Shown: in pieces, positions 4,390 to 64,000 of the stretch
How positions within the stretch are numbered: position 1 is the stretch's first letter
Layout: each line of letters opens with the position of its first letter
IMG/VR virus record: IMGVR_UViG_3300025015_000022
Location: 20,465-84,464 of that record
Origin: a virus
Lineage: Duplodnaviria; Caudoviricetes
Length of the DNA stretch: 64,000 nt
Reading direction: 5' to 3' (one strand)
Position numbers and translations under genes: made by a program
Notes under the pieces: model-generated
Told to the model about the DNA's origin: nothing
Seen by the model: the letters and a program-made list of their open reading frames with translations, nothing else
The model's database searches: none

Positions 4390-4691
4390 CCCCCGCCACC
4401 GTCTCGACGCTCGCGACGTGCCAGCACTGCCAGTCGACCCTGCGCGTGTTCGACCAGGGGCCCGCTGGTCGTCACGGCCACCGGTACGCGGCGGTCTGCA
4501 CGCGCTGCGGGGTGGGGTTGGAGTTCGTGGTGACGGGGGTGGCTGGGGAGCCGGCGCACGAGCGGGCCCGCGAGGCGATGCTGCGCGGGGCGTTCACGCG
4601 GGCGGCGGTGCAGGTGGCGATCGGGAGGGGGATGCGCGGGGATCTGGCGTGGCTTGCGGGAAGTGTCGAGAGCGTGGGAGGTGGTGCGTGA
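4371..4691 (+). CDS. zinc-ribbon protein
   Basis: CQHC...CTRC pairs. Confidence 0.55.
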   Translation: MGDVQITPATVSTLATCQHCQSTLRVFDQGPAGRHGHRYAAVCTRCGVGLEFVVTGVAGEPAHERAREAMLRGAFTRAAVQVAIGRGMRGDLAWLAGSVESVGGGA

Positions 4692-4960
4692 GGAAGGACT
4701 TTCTCGACATGCGGTACGTGTGCGGGTGGGATGAAGTGAGCGACGGCCGTGTGGAAGCCATCCGCACGGCGGGTGGAGCGTGGCGGGCTGGCGACGGGCT
4801 CATGGCGCTGACCGACGCGTGGCCGCTGGCGTTCCTGCCGATCCGAGTCGTTGCGGTGCTTCTGCGCCACGTGGGGATCGAAGCGCTGATGAAGCTGCGT
4901 CGCGTGCAGAGCGACGAGTGGGATCGCAGGCGTTCCGCACGGAAGTCGGCGCGAGCATGA
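4688..4960 (+). CDS. hypothetical protein
   Basis: GTG 4688 overlaps upstream stop; frame of ORF 4271..4960. Confidence 0.45.
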   Translation: MRKDFLDMRYVCGWDEVSDGRVEAIRTAGGAWRAGDGLMALTDAWPLAFLPIRVVAVLLRHVGIEALMKLRRVQSDEWDRRRSARKSARA

Positions 4961-5226
4961 GCAACGCCAAGGGGATGCAGGCGAAGCACGTACCAGACGA
5001 CCCCGTGCTGGTGTTCATCGCCGAGCACGCGACGGCCACGTACAGCGAACCGATCTACGACAACAGCGTGCTGCACGCGATGCCAGAGGGGACGCCGCTG
5101 AAGGTGGCGCTGGCGAAGATGAACGCGCTGATACGGCGAGGGCTGGTCGACGGGTGCGGTTGCGGGTGCATGGGTAGCTTCACGCTGACAGACACAGGCA
5201 AGAGGCGAATCGAGGTGACACCATGA
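4957..5226 (+). CDS. winged-helix-like hypothetical protein
   Basis: KMNALIRRGLVDGCGCGCMGSFTLTDTG resembles a wHTH wing. Confidence 0.55.
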   Translation: MSNAKGMQAKHVPDDPVLVFIAEHATATYSEPIYDNSVLHAMPEGTPLKVALAKMNALIRRGLVDGCGCGCMGSFTLTDTGKRRIEVTP

Positions 5227-5471
5227 CCCGCGACGAGTGGAACGCCCTGGTTGCCCGCTACACCTACGCGCTCACCACGCGCGTGAACACGCACGACCCG
5301 GCGCTGCTGCCGGCTCGCGACCTGGCGGTGGCCGACGCGCTGCTGGCGGTGCTGGAAGGCGAGCGACGGCTGCGGGAGGCTGGTCGCGGAACCTGCTTGA
5401 ACTGCGCCACCGAGCCATGCACCGACCTTGAAAACCTACGGGACTGCGAAGACTGGACGAGGCAGCCATGA
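5223..5471 (+). CDS. hypothetical protein
   Basis: ORF track; overlapping start/stop. Confidence 0.5.
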   Translation: MTRDEWNALVARYTYALTTRVNTHDPALLPARDLAVADALLAVLEGERRLREAGRGTCLNCATEPCTDLENLRDCEDWTRQP

Positions 5472-59335: not shown

Positions 59336-59413
59336 GTAGCACCCCTCGCGGCGACTCCCTTACGGGTGCCGCGGGGACCAACGCAGCTTCGCGCTGCACA
59401 GCAGGGGGTTCAC

Positions 59414-60355
59414 ATGTGTGAGTTCGCCTCGATAGTGCTGATCAAAGAGCAGGCGTTCTGGGCGCTGGTCGACAGCCACGAAGAGATCATCCGCAAGCAC
59501 GGGCTGCACGCCGATGGGGTCGGTGGCCCCAATGTGCTGCGCGTCGAGATCTGCCCGCCGTCGCTGGATGGCGTTGGCCTGCGTGCGCCGCTGGCCGAGT
59601 GGACGTATCGCGTCGACCAGGACATCATGCCCGAGTGGGCGGACGCAGAGCGTGACGAGGAGCGGGCGAGGCTGGCGCTGGCAGAACTGGTCGCAGAGCG
59701 GGTGATCGTCGACCGGACGCACATCAAGAAGATCACGGAAGGCGTGTACTACCTGATCCACAACGCCACGGTGGACGCCATGGGCAACGCCACGGTGGAC
59801 GCCAGGGACAACGCCACGGTGACCGCCATGGGCAACGCCACGGTGGACGCCAGGGACAACGCCACGGTGGACGCCAGGGACAACGCCACGGTGGACGCCA
59901 TGGGCAACGCCACGGTGACCGCCATGGGCAACGCCACGGTGGACGCCATGGGCAACGCCACGGTGGACGCCAGGGACAAGGCCACGGTGACCGCCTGGGA
60001 CAACGCCACGGTGACCGCCTGGGACAACGCCACGGTGGACGCCATGGGCAACGCCACGGTGACCGCCATGGGCAACGCCACGGTGGACGCCATGGGCAAC
60101 GCCACGGTGACCGCCATGGGCAACGCCACGGTGGACGCCAGGGACAAGGCCACGGTGGACGCCATGGGCAACGCCACGGTGACCGCCTGGGACAACGCCA
60201 CGGTGACCGCCAGGGGCAACGCCACGGTGGGAGCGGTCAACGATCACGCCACCGTCCGCGCGTACAACCCGCAGCCCGATGTCGAGATCCTCGGTCCGTA
60301 CGCGGTGCTCATCGACTGCACGGGCGAGCGCGCGGTGTGCAGGGTGGGCGAGTAG
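59414..60355 (+). CDS. octapeptide-repeat protein (NATV-x-A-x-x solenoid)
   Basis: N-terminal MCEFAS...SHEEII domain followed by about 20 8-aa repeats. Confidence 0.8.
   Translation: MCEFASIVLIKEQAFWALVDSHEEIIRKHGLHADGVGGPNVLRVEICPPSLDGVGLRAPLAEWTYRVDQDIMPEWADAERDEERARLALAELVAERVIVDRTHIKKITEGVYYLIHNATVDAMGNATVDARDNATVTAMGNATVDARDNATVDARDNATVDAMGNATVTAMGNATVDAMGNATVDARDKATVTAWDNATVTAWDNATVDAMGNATVTAMGNATVDAMGNATVTAMGNATVDARDKATVDAMGNATVTAWDNATVTARGNATVGAVNDHATVRAYNPQPDVEILGPYAVLIDCTGERAVCRVGE
59762..60241 (+). repeat. 24-bp tandem repeat array, 19 full units plus one degenerate
   Basis: Unit AA(C/G)GCCACGGTG(GAC/ACC)GCC(ATGGGC/AGGGAC/TGGGAC/AGGGGC). Confidence 0.95.
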
Positions 60356-62300: not shown

Positions 62301-62313
62301 CCGATGCTCTACC

Positions 62314-62400
62314 ACGCCCGCCAGCCCCACTCGGGCATCAACGGCGACCGGCCGACACCTCGCGGGGACAGCGAGGGCCGCAAGCCGTGGCGGGCGTTTT
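62314..62400 (+). ncRNA. multi-branched structured RNA or terminator
   Basis: 10-bp stem ACGCCCGCCA/TGGCGGGCGT enclosing GCCC/GGGC and CCTCGC/GCGAGG hairpins, followed by TTT. Confidence 0.45.
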
Positions 62401-62426
62401 GCGGGGGGATATTCCCGCGTCAACTC

Positions 62427-62503
62427 GCGTGCGTAGCTCAGTCGGGAGAGCAGAACCACCGCAAGGTGGGGAGCCGGCGGTTCGAGTCCGTCCGCACGCG
62501 CCA
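62427..62503 (+). ncRNA. tRNA-shaped RNA with GNRA-capped anticodon arm
   Basis: Acceptor GCGTGCG/CGCACGC, D-arm GCTC/GAGC, T-arm GGCGG-TTCGAGT-CCGTC, encoded CCA; anticodon arm CCACC-GCAA-GGTGG. Confidence 0.75.
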
Positions 62504-62504
62504 T

Positions 62505-62540
62505 GGGGGTGTAGCTCAGTTGGGAGAGCGCGCGTTGCAA
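62505..62540 (+). pseudogene. 5' half of a tRNA-Ala(UGC)
   Basis: GGGGGTG-TA-GCTC-AGTTGGGA-GAGC then GCGCGTTGCA; no adjacent T-arm or acceptor 3' strand. Confidence 0.65.
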
Positions 62541-62563
62541 TGCTGCGTTGACGGTGATATCGT
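62535..62563 (+). promoter_or_regulatory. promoter for the HNH gene, -35 formed by the tRNA anticodon region
   Basis: TTGCAA-17 nt-TATCGT with TGn extended -10. Confidence 0.55.
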
Positions 62564-62594
62564 AGTGCGCAGTGGAGCACCGTGGAGACATGCG

Positions 62595-63008
62595 TTGGCA
62601 AAGTACAAGTTCGTCAAGGCTCCGCCCGAGTACCCGGGGAAGGTCTACTCATGGGGGAGAAGGCTGCTGGAGCATCGTCTAGTCTGGTGGAATGAAACGG
62701 GGCACGTCGTTGGCCAGGGAGAAGTAGTTCACCATCTGAACGGGGATGGGTCGGACAACAGGTTTGAGAACCTTCAGCTTTTGACGGTAGACGAGCACAA
62801 CGAGATCCATCACATGTGCGATGCCCCGGTTGAATTTGTGTGCCCGACGTGCTCAACGCCGTTCGTTCGGTCTGCTCGGTACGTAAGAACCCGCACCAAC
62901 AGGGGTGCAAAGACGTTCTACTGTTCTCGCAGGTGCGGCGTGACGGGGACTGGGAACCTGAAGAAGAACAGGTTCTACAAGCTGCATCGAGAGCGTGCTG
63001 GGAAATGA
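62595..63008 (+). CDS. HNH homing endonuclease (HNH_3-like) with zinc ribbon
   Basis: LLEHRLVW...EVVHHLNGDGSDNRFENLQLLTVDEHNEIH; CPTC...YCSRRC; TTG start after GGAG; lower-GC codon usage. Confidence 0.85.
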   Translation: MAKYKFVKAPPEYPGKVYSWGRRLLEHRLVWWNETGHVVGQGEVVHHLNGDGSDNRFENLQLLTVDEHNEIHHMCDAPVEFVCPTCSTPFVRSARYVRTRTNRGAKTFYCSRRCGVTGTGNLKKNRFYKLHRERAGK

Positions 63009-63011
63009 AAC

Positions 63012-63083
63012 GGGCATGTACCTCAACAGGGAGAGGACCGCGCTTGCACCGCGGCTACGGGAGTTCGAGTCTCCCCACCTCCA
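63012..63083 (+). tRNA. tRNA-Ala(UGC) with mismatched acceptor stem
   Basis: D-arm CCTC/GAGG, anticodon arm CCGCG-CTTGCAC-CGCGG, T-arm GGGAG-TTCGAGT-CTCCC, G3:U70, A73; C4-C69 and A5-C68 mismatches; CCA not encoded. Confidence 0.7.
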
Positions 63084-63089
63084 CCGCAC

Positions 63090-63206
63090 CCGTGGCAAGA
63101 GGTCCGCGGTACAGGGGCCAACGCAGGCTGGCCCGCGGACGCCTGCTCGTTCTGGTCGTGGTCCGGGTGGCTGGCGCAGGGGGAGTTCGATCCTCCCGCC
63201 ACGATC
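63090..63206 (+). ncRNA. tRNA-like RNA with T-arm and acceptor-like stem but no canonical D/anticodon arms
   Basis: GGGAG-TTCGATC-CTCCC (63181-97) followed by GCCACGA, which pairs with TCGTGGT (63156-62) or CGTGGC (63091-96). Confidence 0.5.
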
Positions 63207-63239
63207 GATGAAGCGTACGCGACCGCAGGTTTCTTGCCA

Positions 63240-63651: not shown

Positions 63652-63662
63652 GAGGGGGGACC

Positions 63663-64000
63663 ATGGGCAAGATCGAGAAGCTGACCCCGGAACAGGAGGC
63701 GCAGGTCGTTGCGCTGCGTGAGCGGTTCTTCGCGCAGGCGACGAGCACGGAGCCCGCCGACCGCGCACGGGCGGAAGCGGCGGCGCGGCGACTGGCCGAG
63801 ATCGGCGGCGTGAAGATCAACGCCGTCGTGTGGGCCAAGTCGGCGCAGGACGGGCAGCGCGAGTACGAGAAGGCATGGGACAGCCTGCGGGCCAGCCTGT
63901 GGGACAGCCTGGGGGACAGCCTGGGGGACAGCCTGGGGGACAGCCTGGGGGACAGCCTGGGGGACAGCCTGTGGGACAGCCTGCGGGACAGCCTGCGGGC
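63663..64000 (+). CDS. partial tetrapeptide-repeat protein (DUF6745-like), runs off the window
   Basis: MGKIEKLTPEQEA...STEPADRARAEAA, then (W/R/G)DSL repeats. Confidence 0.7.
   Translation, partial: MGKIEKLTPEQEAQVVALRERFFAQATSTEPADRARAEAAARRLAEIGGVKINAVVWAKSAQDGQREYEKAWDSLRASLWDSLGDSLGDSLGDSLGDSLGDSLWDSLRDSLR
63876..64000 (+). repeat. 12-bp tandem repeat, at least 10 units
   Basis: Unit (T/C/G)GGG(A/C)CAGCCTG. Confidence 0.95.

What the first reader, a model, noticed from the sequence alone, without database searches (positions are those of the whole stretch)
62427..62503. tRNA-shaped RNA whose anticodon loop is replaced by a GNRA tetraloop
Seen: perfect 7-bp acceptor, canonical D- and T-arms, G73 and encoded CCA. 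The anticodon arm folds best as CCACC-GCAA-GGTGG. The canonical register gives only 3 pairs and no U33. An intact body and CCA end argue against random decay. Inference: a non-decoding tRNA mimic, for example a decoy for anticodon nucleases or tRNA-sensing defences, or a ligand for synthetases or stringent-response sensors.
Basis: partly seen in the sequence, partly recalled or inferred. Interest (0 to 1): 0.72.

Follow-up and report, generated by a model that had tools for sequence, protein, structure and literature searches.

The report
Phage tRNA gene with sealed anticodon
An uncultured 84-kb phage carries a tRNA-shaped RNA gene whose codon-reading loop is closed into a four-base-capped hairpin, so it cannot decode; it looks most like a remodelled leftover of an ordinary phage tRNA gene in a fast-changing tRNA island, and nothing found here shows that it is a decoy.

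Summary
Bases 62427-62503 (+) form a complete tRNA body: a 7-bp acceptor, consensus D and T arms, G73 and an encoded CCA. The anticodon arm folds as CCACC-GCAA-GGTGG, 7.6 kcal/mol better than the canonical register (3 pairs, C33).

It lies in a complete-looking 84-kb virus record. It sits one base upstream of a tRNA-Ala(UGC) gene that an HNH-nuclease cassette has overwritten.

Only three versions of this RNA island could be obtained:
- This window.
- A sister phage, seen in two metagenomes. Its slot holds a very different allele: a tRNA-Arg(UCU)-like gene lacking loop base 32.
- A third relative that lacks both tRNAs.

The two alleles differ at 40% of stem positions, against 11-13% at four-fold sites of the flanking genes. 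Even so, 20 of 21 pairs stay paired. They are therefore swapped cassettes descended from working tRNAs.

My reading (0.5): a non-decoding descendant of an elongator tRNA, still cut out as a tRNA-shaped RNA. It is a remnant, or at most a processing module.

A selected tRNA mimic or decoy stays possible (0.22), with no direct support. No tRNA-handling gene (Pth, Ro/TROVE, CCA enzyme) is present.

This scan has noted sealed-anticodon tRNA look-alikes before on other phage DNA.

Expression could not be tested.

The parts
62427..62503 (+). tRNA-shaped RNA gene ('#1'), 77 nt, sealed anticodon arm, G73, encoded CCA
   Evidence: ARAGORN; Rfam tRNA 41.5 bits; cloverleaf is the minimum-energy fold
62427..62433 (+). 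acceptor 5' strand GCGTGCG; pairs with 62493-62499 (CGCACGC)
   Evidence: 7 of 7 Watson-Crick pairs
62436..62451 (+). D arm GCTC-AGTCGGGA-GAGC with G18 G19
62452..62455 (+). unpaired linker AGAA (canonical position 26 plus three extra bases)
   Evidence: compared with tRNA-Val(GAC), which has a single A before the same CCACC stem
62456..62469 (+). sealed helix CCACC-GCAA-GGTGG in place of the anticodon stem-loop
   Evidence: pair probabilities 0.98-0.995; 7.6 kcal/mol better than the canonical register; the stem sequence equals the anticodon stem of proteobacterial tRNA-Val(GAC)
62470..62475 (+). 6-nt variable loop GGAGCC
62476..62492 (+). T arm GGCGG-TTCGAGT-CCGTC
62500..62503 (+). discriminator G73 and encoded CCA; a single T (62504) separates it from the tRNA-Ala 5' piece
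   Evidence: alignment with L002
62304..62420 (+). conserved structured element 'U' directly upstream (context, same RNA island)
   Evidence: 114/123 identical to L002; fold with a closing stem and hairpins; compensatory changes against L007
62505..63085 (+). tRNA-Ala(UGC) overwritten by an HNH cassette: 5' stub, HNH_3 ORF (62565 or 62595 to 63008), hybrid tRNA 63012-63085 (context)
   Evidence: (acceptor non-pairs marked); intact in L002 at 4535-4609
63154..63207 (+). third tRNA-like element ('#3'): 8-bp acceptor-like stem plus T arm, no D or anticodon arm (context)
   Evidence: T-arm and acceptor pairs kept through double changes in L007 and L002

Best explanation
The gene is a non-decoding descendant of an ordinary class-I elongator tRNA gene. 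Its body resembles tRNA-Val(GAC), Ala(CGC) and Arg(UCU), and its sealed helix is the Val(GAC)-type anticodon stem. The 7-nt loop has been replaced by GCAA, and three bases have been added at the junction between the D stem and the anticodon stem.

It occupies a swappable slot in a roughly 1-kb non-coding RNA island at the end of a long rightward gene block, one base upstream of tRNA-Ala.

Inferred life cycle:
- It is read through from the upstream genes.
- RNase P cuts at G1.
- The 3' end is trimmed back to the encoded CCA.
- The product is a stable, L-shaped RNA, probably uncharged.

It cannot pair with codons. It also lacks the identity sets for AlaRS (no G3:U70), ArgRS (no A20 or C35) and ValRS (no A35 C36, and G73 in place of A73).

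I read it as a remodelled remnant in a tRNA island that homing-nuclease traffic keeps rearranging. At most it serves in cis, as a processing or stability module of the transcript it shares with tRNA-Ala. I do not read it as a dedicated trans-acting decoy.

Shown: the shape, the sealed arm, the tRNA ancestry, the polymorphic slot, and the absence from one relative. Inferred: transcription, processing, lack of charging, and lack of a trans function.
For: Shape and sealed arm.

Ancestry:
- Best full-length matches are E. coli tRNA-Val(GAC) (75%, identical CCACC/GGTGG stem) and phage tRNA-Arg(TCT) (73-74%).
- In GC-rich bacteria the best matches are tRNA-Ala(CGC) and tRNA-Val(GAC).

The same slot in the sister phage L002/L003 holds a gene whose anticodon arm, CCCGC-TTCTGA-GCGGG, matches the Dartukuta tRNA-Arg(TCT) arm CCCGC-CTTCTAA-GTGGG minus base 32. 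That is an ordinary tRNA with a small lesion.

The two alleles are only 43/77 identical, with 17 of 42 stem positions changed. The flanks are far closer: 114/123 identical in U, and 32/36 and 47/54 identical at four-fold sites of the flanking genes. This fits cassette replacement, not slow divergence in place.

L007 lacks both #1 and tRNA-Ala, so the element is dispensable.

The neighbouring tRNA-Ala is overwritten by an HNH cassette. Relatives of that HNH sit inside tRNA arrays of other phages.

The genome has only these two tRNA-type genes. No Pth1 or Pth2, Ro/TROVE, CCA-adding enzyme, reverse transcriptase, integrase or resolvase was found.

AGA is the rarest Arg codon in the phage (15 of 1245), so a tRNA-Arg(UCU) occupant would be under weak selection.
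Against: - All 21 stem pairs, the D- and T-loop consensus bases and the CCA are intact. The changes relative to a canonical arm (three bases gained, three lost, a 6-nt variable loop) all lie in the anticodon and variable region and give a perfect GC-rich helix with a GNRA cap. Free decay does not predict this.
- The sister allele also lacks a 7-nt loop while keeping 20 of 21 pairs.
- Other modules of the island (U, the hairpin at 63115-63134, and #3) keep their pairs through double changes. The island is therefore not simply a graveyard, and this phage lineage clearly maintains at least one anticodon-less tRNA-like RNA (#3).
- Only three island versions could be examined. No second copy of this exact allele was available, so selection on the sealed helix itself is untested.
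Confidence: 0.5

Rival explanations
1. It is a selected, trans-acting tRNA mimic. A stable CCA-ended RNA with a tRNA elbow and acceptor end, but no anticodon, occupies or titrates a host protein that recognises tRNA shape. Candidates are a tRNA-cleaving or CCA-modifying defence effector, RNase P, or the CCA enzyme. It may act together with the neighbouring anticodon-less element #3.
For: - The tRNA body is perfect and the extra-stable GNRA-capped helix is not the canonical register.
- The slot homologue also cannot form a 7-nt loop yet keeps its stems.
- #3 and other island modules show compensatory changes.
- T4 likewise keeps small stable RNAs of unknown role in its tRNA cluster next to a homing nuclease gene. 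One of them has a consensus T arm (PMC3014915).
Against: - The loop and stem sequences of the two alleles share nothing.
- The sister allele looks like a one-base lesion of tRNA-Arg(UCU), and Rfam does not recognise it as a tRNA at E <= 1.
- L007 lacks the element.
- No partner gene for tRNA handling is present.
- Published phage-tRNA counter-defences act by decoding, not by sponging (PMC10264068, PMC12445682).
- I found no paper describing such a decoy.
Confidence: 0.22
2. The lesion was selected at the DNA level. Homing nucleases that cut within tRNA genes favour alleles whose target, the anticodon-arm DNA, is destroyed. The rest of the gene is carried along, or kept for precursor processing. 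The sealed arm would then be a repair scar or an immunity allele, not an RNA adaptation.
For: - The neighbouring tRNA-Ala was hit in its anticodon region by an HNH cassette. Homology of the 5' stub to the intact L002 gene ends just after TGCAA.
- L002 carries a different HNH-like ORF elsewhere in the island, read by eye.
- HNH relatives live in tRNA arrays.
- All three anticodon regions in the two phages are unusual: sealed, one base short, and C33 in the L002 tRNA-Ala.
- T4 segB sits in the T4 tRNA cluster.
Against: No nuclease is known or shown to target this gene. No cleavage site has been mapped. The idea does not explain why the new arm is a perfect helix.
Confidence: 0.12
3. It still decodes. 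In the canonical register it would be a tRNA with anticodon CGC (reading GCG), C33 and a 3-bp anticodon stem.
For: ARAGORN's call. GCG is the commonest Ala codon in the phage (1211 of 2275). The intact tRNA-Ala of the sister phage also has C33.
Against: - The canonical register is 7.6 kcal/mol worse and has pair probability 0.0001.
- There are two purine-purine mismatches in the stem.
- There is no G3:U70, so AlaRS should not charge it. Charging by another synthetase would mistranslate the phage's own most-used Ala codon.
Confidence: 0.04
4. It is an assembly or sequencing artefact in a metagenome contig.
For: This allele was seen in one record only. Read-level checking was not possible.
Against: - The flanks align cleanly with two independent relatives.
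- The arm differs by several coordinated changes, not by a homopolymer slip.
- It is not repeated elsewhere in the genome.
- A 99%-identical copy of the upstream protein exists on another contig, so the phage was sampled more than once.
Confidence: 0.03

Closest known systems
Canonical class-I elongator tRNA (Rfam RF00005), especially tRNA-Val(GAC), tRNA-Ala(CGC) and phage tRNA-Arg(UCU)
   Same: 7-bp acceptor, D arm with G18 G19, T arm TTCGAGT, discriminator plus CCA. 73-77% identity to real tRNAs. The sealed helix has the sequence of the Val(GAC) anticodon stem.
   Different: No 7-nt anticodon loop, no U33, three extra bases before the helix, a 6-nt variable loop. No identity set for Ala, Arg or Val.
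tRNA pseudogenes ('pseudo-tRNA') commonly annotated in phage tRNA clusters
   Same: tRNA-derived, cannot decode, sits in a tRNA cluster with a homing nuclease gene, and is absent from a close relative.
   Different: The body shows no decay at all, and the lesion creates an extra-stable capped helix rather than a mismatch or truncation.
Phage T4 small stable RNAs rnaC (species 1) and rnaD (species 2)
   Same: Non-tRNA stable RNAs encoded within a phage tRNA cluster, directly next to tRNA-Arg and near the homing nuclease gene segB. rnaC ends in a consensus T arm and an acceptor-like stem. Function unknown (PMC3014915).
   Different: 119-139 nt, no full cloverleaf, no sequence similarity tested. 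The resemblance is closer to element #3 of this island than to #1.
Nuclease-evading phage tRNAs with anticodon-loop or stem changes (T5 tRNAs; phage tRNA-Thr resistant to P2 OLD)
   Same: Phage tRNA genes whose anticodon arm is the part that changes (PMC10264068, PMC12445682).
   Different: Those tRNAs keep a working anticodon and protect by decoding. This RNA has none.
Bacterial Y-RNA-like YrlA (RF02553)
   Same: Carries a tRNA-like module with a T arm and a D arm.
   Different: The match is 20 bits against a gathering score of 69, and it spans the T arm of #1 plus the D arm of the next gene. There is no Ro/TROVE gene in the genome and no Ro-binding stem.

Membership tests
tRNA (RF00005) | Score at or above the Rfam gathering threshold | tested here: met
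   41.5 bits against 29, but with the anticodon arm left out of the alignment as a local gap
tRNA (RF00005) | 7-bp acceptor stem, D arm with G18 G19, T arm with the T54 T55 C56 and A58 consensus | tested here: met
tRNA (RF00005) | 5-bp anticodon stem closing a 7-nt loop with U33 and a purine at 37 | tested here: not met
   The canonical register has 3 pairs plus 2 purine-purine mismatches and C33. The favoured fold is 5 bp plus a 4-nt GCAA loop.
tRNA-Ala (ARAGORN's label) | G3:U70 identity pair and A73 | tested here: not met
   G3:C70 and G73. The neighbouring true tRNA-Ala genes have G3:T70 and A73.
tRNA pseudogene or remnant | Descent from a tRNA gene with loss of decoding | tested here: met
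   73-77% identity to Val, Ala and Arg tRNAs; sealed arm
tRNA pseudogene or remnant | Relaxed constraint on the body (mismatches accumulating) | tested here: not met
   21 of 21 stem pairs and the loop consensus are intact. No second copy of this allele was available to measure the rate.
tRNA pseudogene or remnant | Dispensable: absent from close relatives | tested here: met
   L007 has no tRNA-like gene in the slot
Selected non-decoding tRNA mimic | Sealed helix conserved through compensatory changes in several independent relatives | tested here: inconclusive
   Only one other allele exists in reach. It keeps a closed-looking arm, but it is best read as tRNA-Arg(UCU) minus one base. Searches of three collections gave no further members.
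Selected non-decoding tRNA mimic | Expressed as a stable small RNA | not testable with these tools
YrlA / Y RNA-like (RF02553) | Gathering score reached, and Ro (TROVE) partner gene present | tested here: not met
   20 bits against 69; no TROVE match in the genome
tmRNA | tRNA-like domain with G3:U70 plus a tag reading frame | tested here: not met
   ARAGORN finds no tmRNA in the window or genome
attP copy of a host tRNA gene | Integrase or recombinase gene in the phage | tested here: not met
   No Phage_integrase or Resolvase match in the 84-kb record

The most novel reading that the evidence does not exclude
The sealed RNA is a selected member of a multi-part tRNA-mimic island (U element, #1, hairpin, #3). 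The phage would make several CCA-ended or minihelix-like RNAs that have a tRNA elbow and acceptor end but no anticodon. These would soak up a host factor that recognises tRNA shape, such as a tRNA-cleaving or CCA-modifying defence effector. That would be a kind of RNA anti-defence not yet described in print.
Probability: 0.2. Interest if true: 0.8.

Novelty: new variant of a known kind. Interest (0 to 1): 0.38.

Why it matters
Phage tRNA genes are now understood partly as replacements for host tRNAs destroyed by defence nucleases. A tRNA-shaped RNA that cannot decode does not fit that picture.

If such RNAs are selected, they would point to a second, shape-based use of tRNA mimicry by phages. 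They might also help explain old puzzles such as the T4 species 1 and 2 RNAs.

If they are remnants, this locus shows how homing-nuclease traffic remodels phage tRNA islands, and why tRNA finders report 'tRNA-Ala(cgc)' for a gene that cannot act as one. That is an annotation pitfall.

In this instance the evidence favours the ordinary reading. The locus is mainly useful as one more data point, and as a compact test case with three alleles of one slot.

Tried and rejected
The contigs of two further relatives of the upstream protein (P0001 at 99%, P0003 at 70%) could not be fetched.

Searches for more relatives:
- Exact and degenerate DNA patterns in IMG/VR, and neighbour proteins as queries, returned only the same sister phage.
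- The metagenome scan returned only L007.
- The two genome-contig scans gave no protein relative and 48 chance matches to an 18-mer with no extended similarity.
- The GenBank phage collection has no relative of the island. The terminase is only about 25% identical to any cultured phage, so the host is unknown.

Hypotheses dropped:
- attP copy of a host tRNA: no integrase or resolvase.
- Y RNA: weak permuted hit, no TROVE gene.
- TYMV-like tRNA-like structure: 24 bits against 40, and at another place.
- Primer for a reverse transcriptase: none present.
- Peptidyl-tRNA-hydrolase cassette, a lead from earlier scan notes: no Pth1 or Pth2.
- Small ORF starting at 62304: third-position changes against L002 suggested coding, but L007 shows paired double changes that fit RNA structure instead.

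The upstream 119-aa protein:
- No Pfam or PHROG family.
- AlphaFold model with pLDDT 76.
- No Foldseek PDB match at E <= 0.001.
- Atlas neighbours are unnamed viral proteins.

A toy simulation of decaying anticodon arms gave in-silico 'sealed' folds in 7-16% of trials. A sealed minimum-energy fold alone is therefore weak evidence. The 'tetraloop' predicted for the L002 allele is better read as a 6-nt loop.

Literature searches found pseudo-tRNAs listed in many phage genomes, but no description of a phage-encoded anticodon-less tRNA decoy.

Full report
WHAT IS THERE

The window is the last 64 kb of an 84,464-bp virus record. It has 67% G+C and all confident genes on the + strand, and CheckV rates it complete. 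Both contig ends fall inside the same tandem-repeat gene, so it is probably a circular or permuted whole genome.

At 62427-62503 the sequence has these parts:
- a 7-bp acceptor stem
- U8 A9
- a D arm with A14, G18, G19 and A21
- a T arm with the loop TTCGAGT
- G73
- an encoded CCA

ARAGORN calls it tRNA-Ala(cgc). Rfam's tRNA model gives 41.5 bits (gathering 29; E = 2e-5 for the window), but it aligns everything except the anticodon arm, which it skips.

In the canonical register the anticodon stem has only three pairs plus G.G and A.G, and the loop is A-C-CGC-A-A with C33. The minimum-energy and centroid folds instead pair CCACC with GGTGG around GCAA. That fold is 7.6 kcal/mol better, with pair probabilities of 0.98-0.995 against 0.0001. 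Sealing also leaves a 4-nt linker (AGAA) after the D stem and a 6-nt variable loop.

CONTEXT

The whole genome has only two tRNA-type genes.

The second is a tRNA-Ala(UGC) that starts one base after the CCA of the first. In this phage an HNH_3 nuclease gene interrupts it (Pfam E = 3.5e-11). A 5' stub at 62505 onward is followed by the HNH ORF, and then by a second copy at 63012-63085. The 5' acceptor strand of that copy mispairs at two positions. An earlier follow-up in this scan described this cassette. I confirm the layout but did not study it further.

The region from the stop codon of the upstream gene (62300) to the promoter region of an HTH repressor-like gene (63355) is about 1 kb of non-coding, highly structured sequence. 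It holds five parts in this order:
- element U (62304-62420)
- #1
- tRNA-Ala with the HNH cassette
- a hairpin (63115-63134)
- a third tRNA-like element, #3 (63154-63207), made of an acceptor-like stem and a T arm only

No sigma-70-like promoter or intrinsic terminator was found in the island. The RNAs are therefore probably made by read-through, which is an inference.

The genome encodes the following:
- replication functions: RecD2-like helicase, primase-helicase, ThyX and a Dam methylase
- no integrase or resolvase
- no peptidyl-tRNA hydrolase
- no Ro/TROVE protein
- no CCA-adding enzyme
- no reverse transcriptase

RELATIVES

A sister phage was assembled independently from two metagenomes (L002 and L003, identical over the island). 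It has the same layout with an intact tRNA-Ala of 65.4 bits.

Its slot for #1 holds a 74-nt gene that ARAGORN labels 'tRNA-?(Arg|Gln)(ct)'. Rfam does not detect it at E <= 1. Its anticodon arm, CCCGC-TTCTGA-GCGGG, equals the arm of a Bacillus-phage tRNA-Arg(TCT), CCCGC-CTTCTAA-GTGGG, minus base 32. It is therefore best read as a tRNA-Arg(UCU) with a one-base-short loop. ViennaRNA closes this loop to four bases, but my toy simulation shows that such in-silico sealing is common (7-16%).

A more distant relative, L007 (upstream protein 70% identical), has neither #1 nor tRNA-Ala. A 48-nt hairpin stands in their place. U, the hairpin and #3 are all retained.

HOW THE TWO ALLELES COMPARE

The alleles are 43/77 identical. 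Seventeen of 42 stem positions differ, yet 20 of 21 pairs remain paired in L002. Eight pairs changed on both sides, none on one side only, and one is broken. Random changes at that density never reached this in 200,000 trials.

The flanks are far more alike. U is 114/123 identical. Four-fold degenerate sites of the two flanking genes are 32/36 and 47/54 identical, a neutral divergence of about 11-13%.

An element that differs three to four times more than neutral sites, between conserved flanks, is most simply a swapped cassette. That means two different tRNA-derived genes occupy one slot. The compensatory pattern then shows only that both descend from RNAs whose stems were under selection. 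It does not show that the sealed form is selected now.

ANCESTRY

Against GenBank phages the best full-length matches are E. coli tRNA-Val(GAC) carried on a prophage record (75%) and two phage tRNA-Arg(TCT) genes (73-74%). In five GC-rich bacterial genomes the best matches are tRNA-Ala(CGC) and tRNA-Val(GAC).

The sealed helix CCACC/GGTGG, with the following GG, is exactly the anticodon stem of proteobacterial tRNA-Val(GAC). There it closes TTGACAT and is preceded by a single A. The helix is therefore the old anticodon stem. What changed is the loop (7 to 4 bases) and the junction (three bases added).

The RNA has none of the anticodon-independent identity marks I could check. It has G3:C70 rather than G3:U70, G73 rather than A73, and G20 rather than A20. 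The identity rules themselves are from established knowledge, reviewed in PMC9976931, which I did not re-read here. Charging is therefore unlikely, but it is untested.

WEIGHING THE READINGS

For a remnant:
- The slot clearly held ordinary tRNAs.
- One relative has lost it.
- The neighbouring tRNA has been overwritten by a mobile nuclease gene.
- Relatives of that nuclease live in tRNA arrays of other phages.
- The phage has no gene that would use a tRNA mimic.
- AGA is hardly used (15 of 1245 Arg codons).

Against simple decay:
- The body is flawless.
- All changes are confined to the anticodon and variable region.
- They produce a perfect GC-rich helix with a GNRA cap.
- The sister allele is also loop-defective.
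- Three other modules of the island keep their pairs through double changes. These are the #3 T arm (two pairs against L007), the #3 acceptor (against L002), the hairpin at 63115-63134 (four pairs against L007), and a U hairpin together with the U closing stem.

The lineage does maintain anticodon-less, tRNA-like structure in #3. T4 offers a precedent: its small stable RNAs rnaC and rnaD lie in the tRNA cluster beside tRNA-Arg and the segB homing nuclease gene. rnaC ends in a consensus T arm, and their roles are still unknown (PMC3014915).

VERDICT

I put 0.5 on a remodelled, non-decoding tRNA remnant that is still processed with tRNA-Ala and at most serves in cis.

I put 0.22 on a selected trans-acting mimic.

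I put 0.12 on a DNA-level immunity or repair scar from homing-nuclease attack.

I put 0.04 on residual decoding.

I put 0.03 on an artefact.

Published phage-tRNA counter-defences require a working anticodon (PMC10264068, PMC12445682). I found no paper describing a phage-encoded anticodon-less decoy.

This scan has repeatedly noted sealed-anticodon tRNA look-alikes on other phage DNA. Those are unchecked leads. The one context clue they offered, a Pth2-like neighbour, is absent here. The upstream 119-aa protein travels with the island in all three relatives but has no recognisable family or fold.

LIMITS

There are no expression data and no read-level confirmation. No second copy of this exact allele was available, and the host is unknown.

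Noticed in passing
window 62304-62420: Element 'U' starts 3 nt after the stop of the upstream gene. It is 114/123 identical to the sister phage, more conserved than four-fold sites of the flanking genes. It folds into a 9-10-bp closing stem that encloses hairpins, followed by a GC hairpin. Against L007, one hairpin pair and one closing-stem pair change on both sides and stay paired. No Rfam family matches. It is probably a structured RNA (a 3' UTR or processing element) rather than the small ORF that its ATG suggests.
   Followed up: partly
window 63154-63207 (L002 4678-4750; L007 912-964): Third tRNA-like element: an 8-9-bp acceptor-like stem, a variable interior, a T arm, then G. The T-arm pairs (G-C to A-T, A-T to G-C against L007) and the acceptor pairs (against L002) covary. 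This supports the short 'mini' fold over long-range pairing with 63091. It resembles the 3' part of T4 rnaC (species 1 RNA), which also ends in a consensus T arm.
   Followed up: partly
window 63115-63134 (L007 873-892): A 6-bp hairpin with an 8-nt loop holding the conserved CGCAG. Four of its six pairs differ on both sides in L007 and stay paired, so it is a selected structure of unknown role between tRNA-Ala and element #3.
   Followed up: partly
L002 4535-4609: The intact tRNA-Ala(UGC) of the sister phage (Rfam 65.4 bits) has the anticodon loop T-C-TGC-A-A, so C33 in place of the near-universal U33. It may be a nuclease-evading loop variant of the kind described for T5 tRNAs.
   Followed up: no
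window 62505-63085: tRNA-Ala is split by an HNH_3 gene. The 5' stub's acceptor strand GGGGGTG pairs perfectly with CACCTCC at 63079-63085. The downstream copy's own strand GGGCATG mispairs at 4:69 and 5:68.
   Followed up: partly
L007 794-841: In the most distant relative, a 48-nt hairpin replaces both #1 and tRNA-Ala. Its outer stem (GGGGTGGG/CTCACCCC) resembles the tRNA-Ala acceptor stem. It is either a deletion product or a minimal processing signal.
   Followed up: no
L002 about 4911-5440: An AT-richer insert downstream of element #3 carries an ORF with an HNH-like Cys/His motif, read by eye only. The sister phage therefore has a different nuclease gene at a different place in the same island.
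   Followed up: no
window 63659-64000 and genome 1-400; also window 59366-60355: The contig begins and ends inside one gene made of 12-nt tandem repeats (DSLG/DSLW-type peptide repeats), which is why the assembly broke there. A second gene has long NATVDAMG-type repeats with weak gp5 C-terminal repeat and baseplate-family matches.
   Followed up: no
L015, L017, L023, L024: Distant relatives of the island's HNH nuclease sit inside tRNA arrays of unrelated, larger phages. One array (L024 1197-1267) contains another ARAGORN 'tRNA-???' with a 6-nt loop.
   Followed up: no
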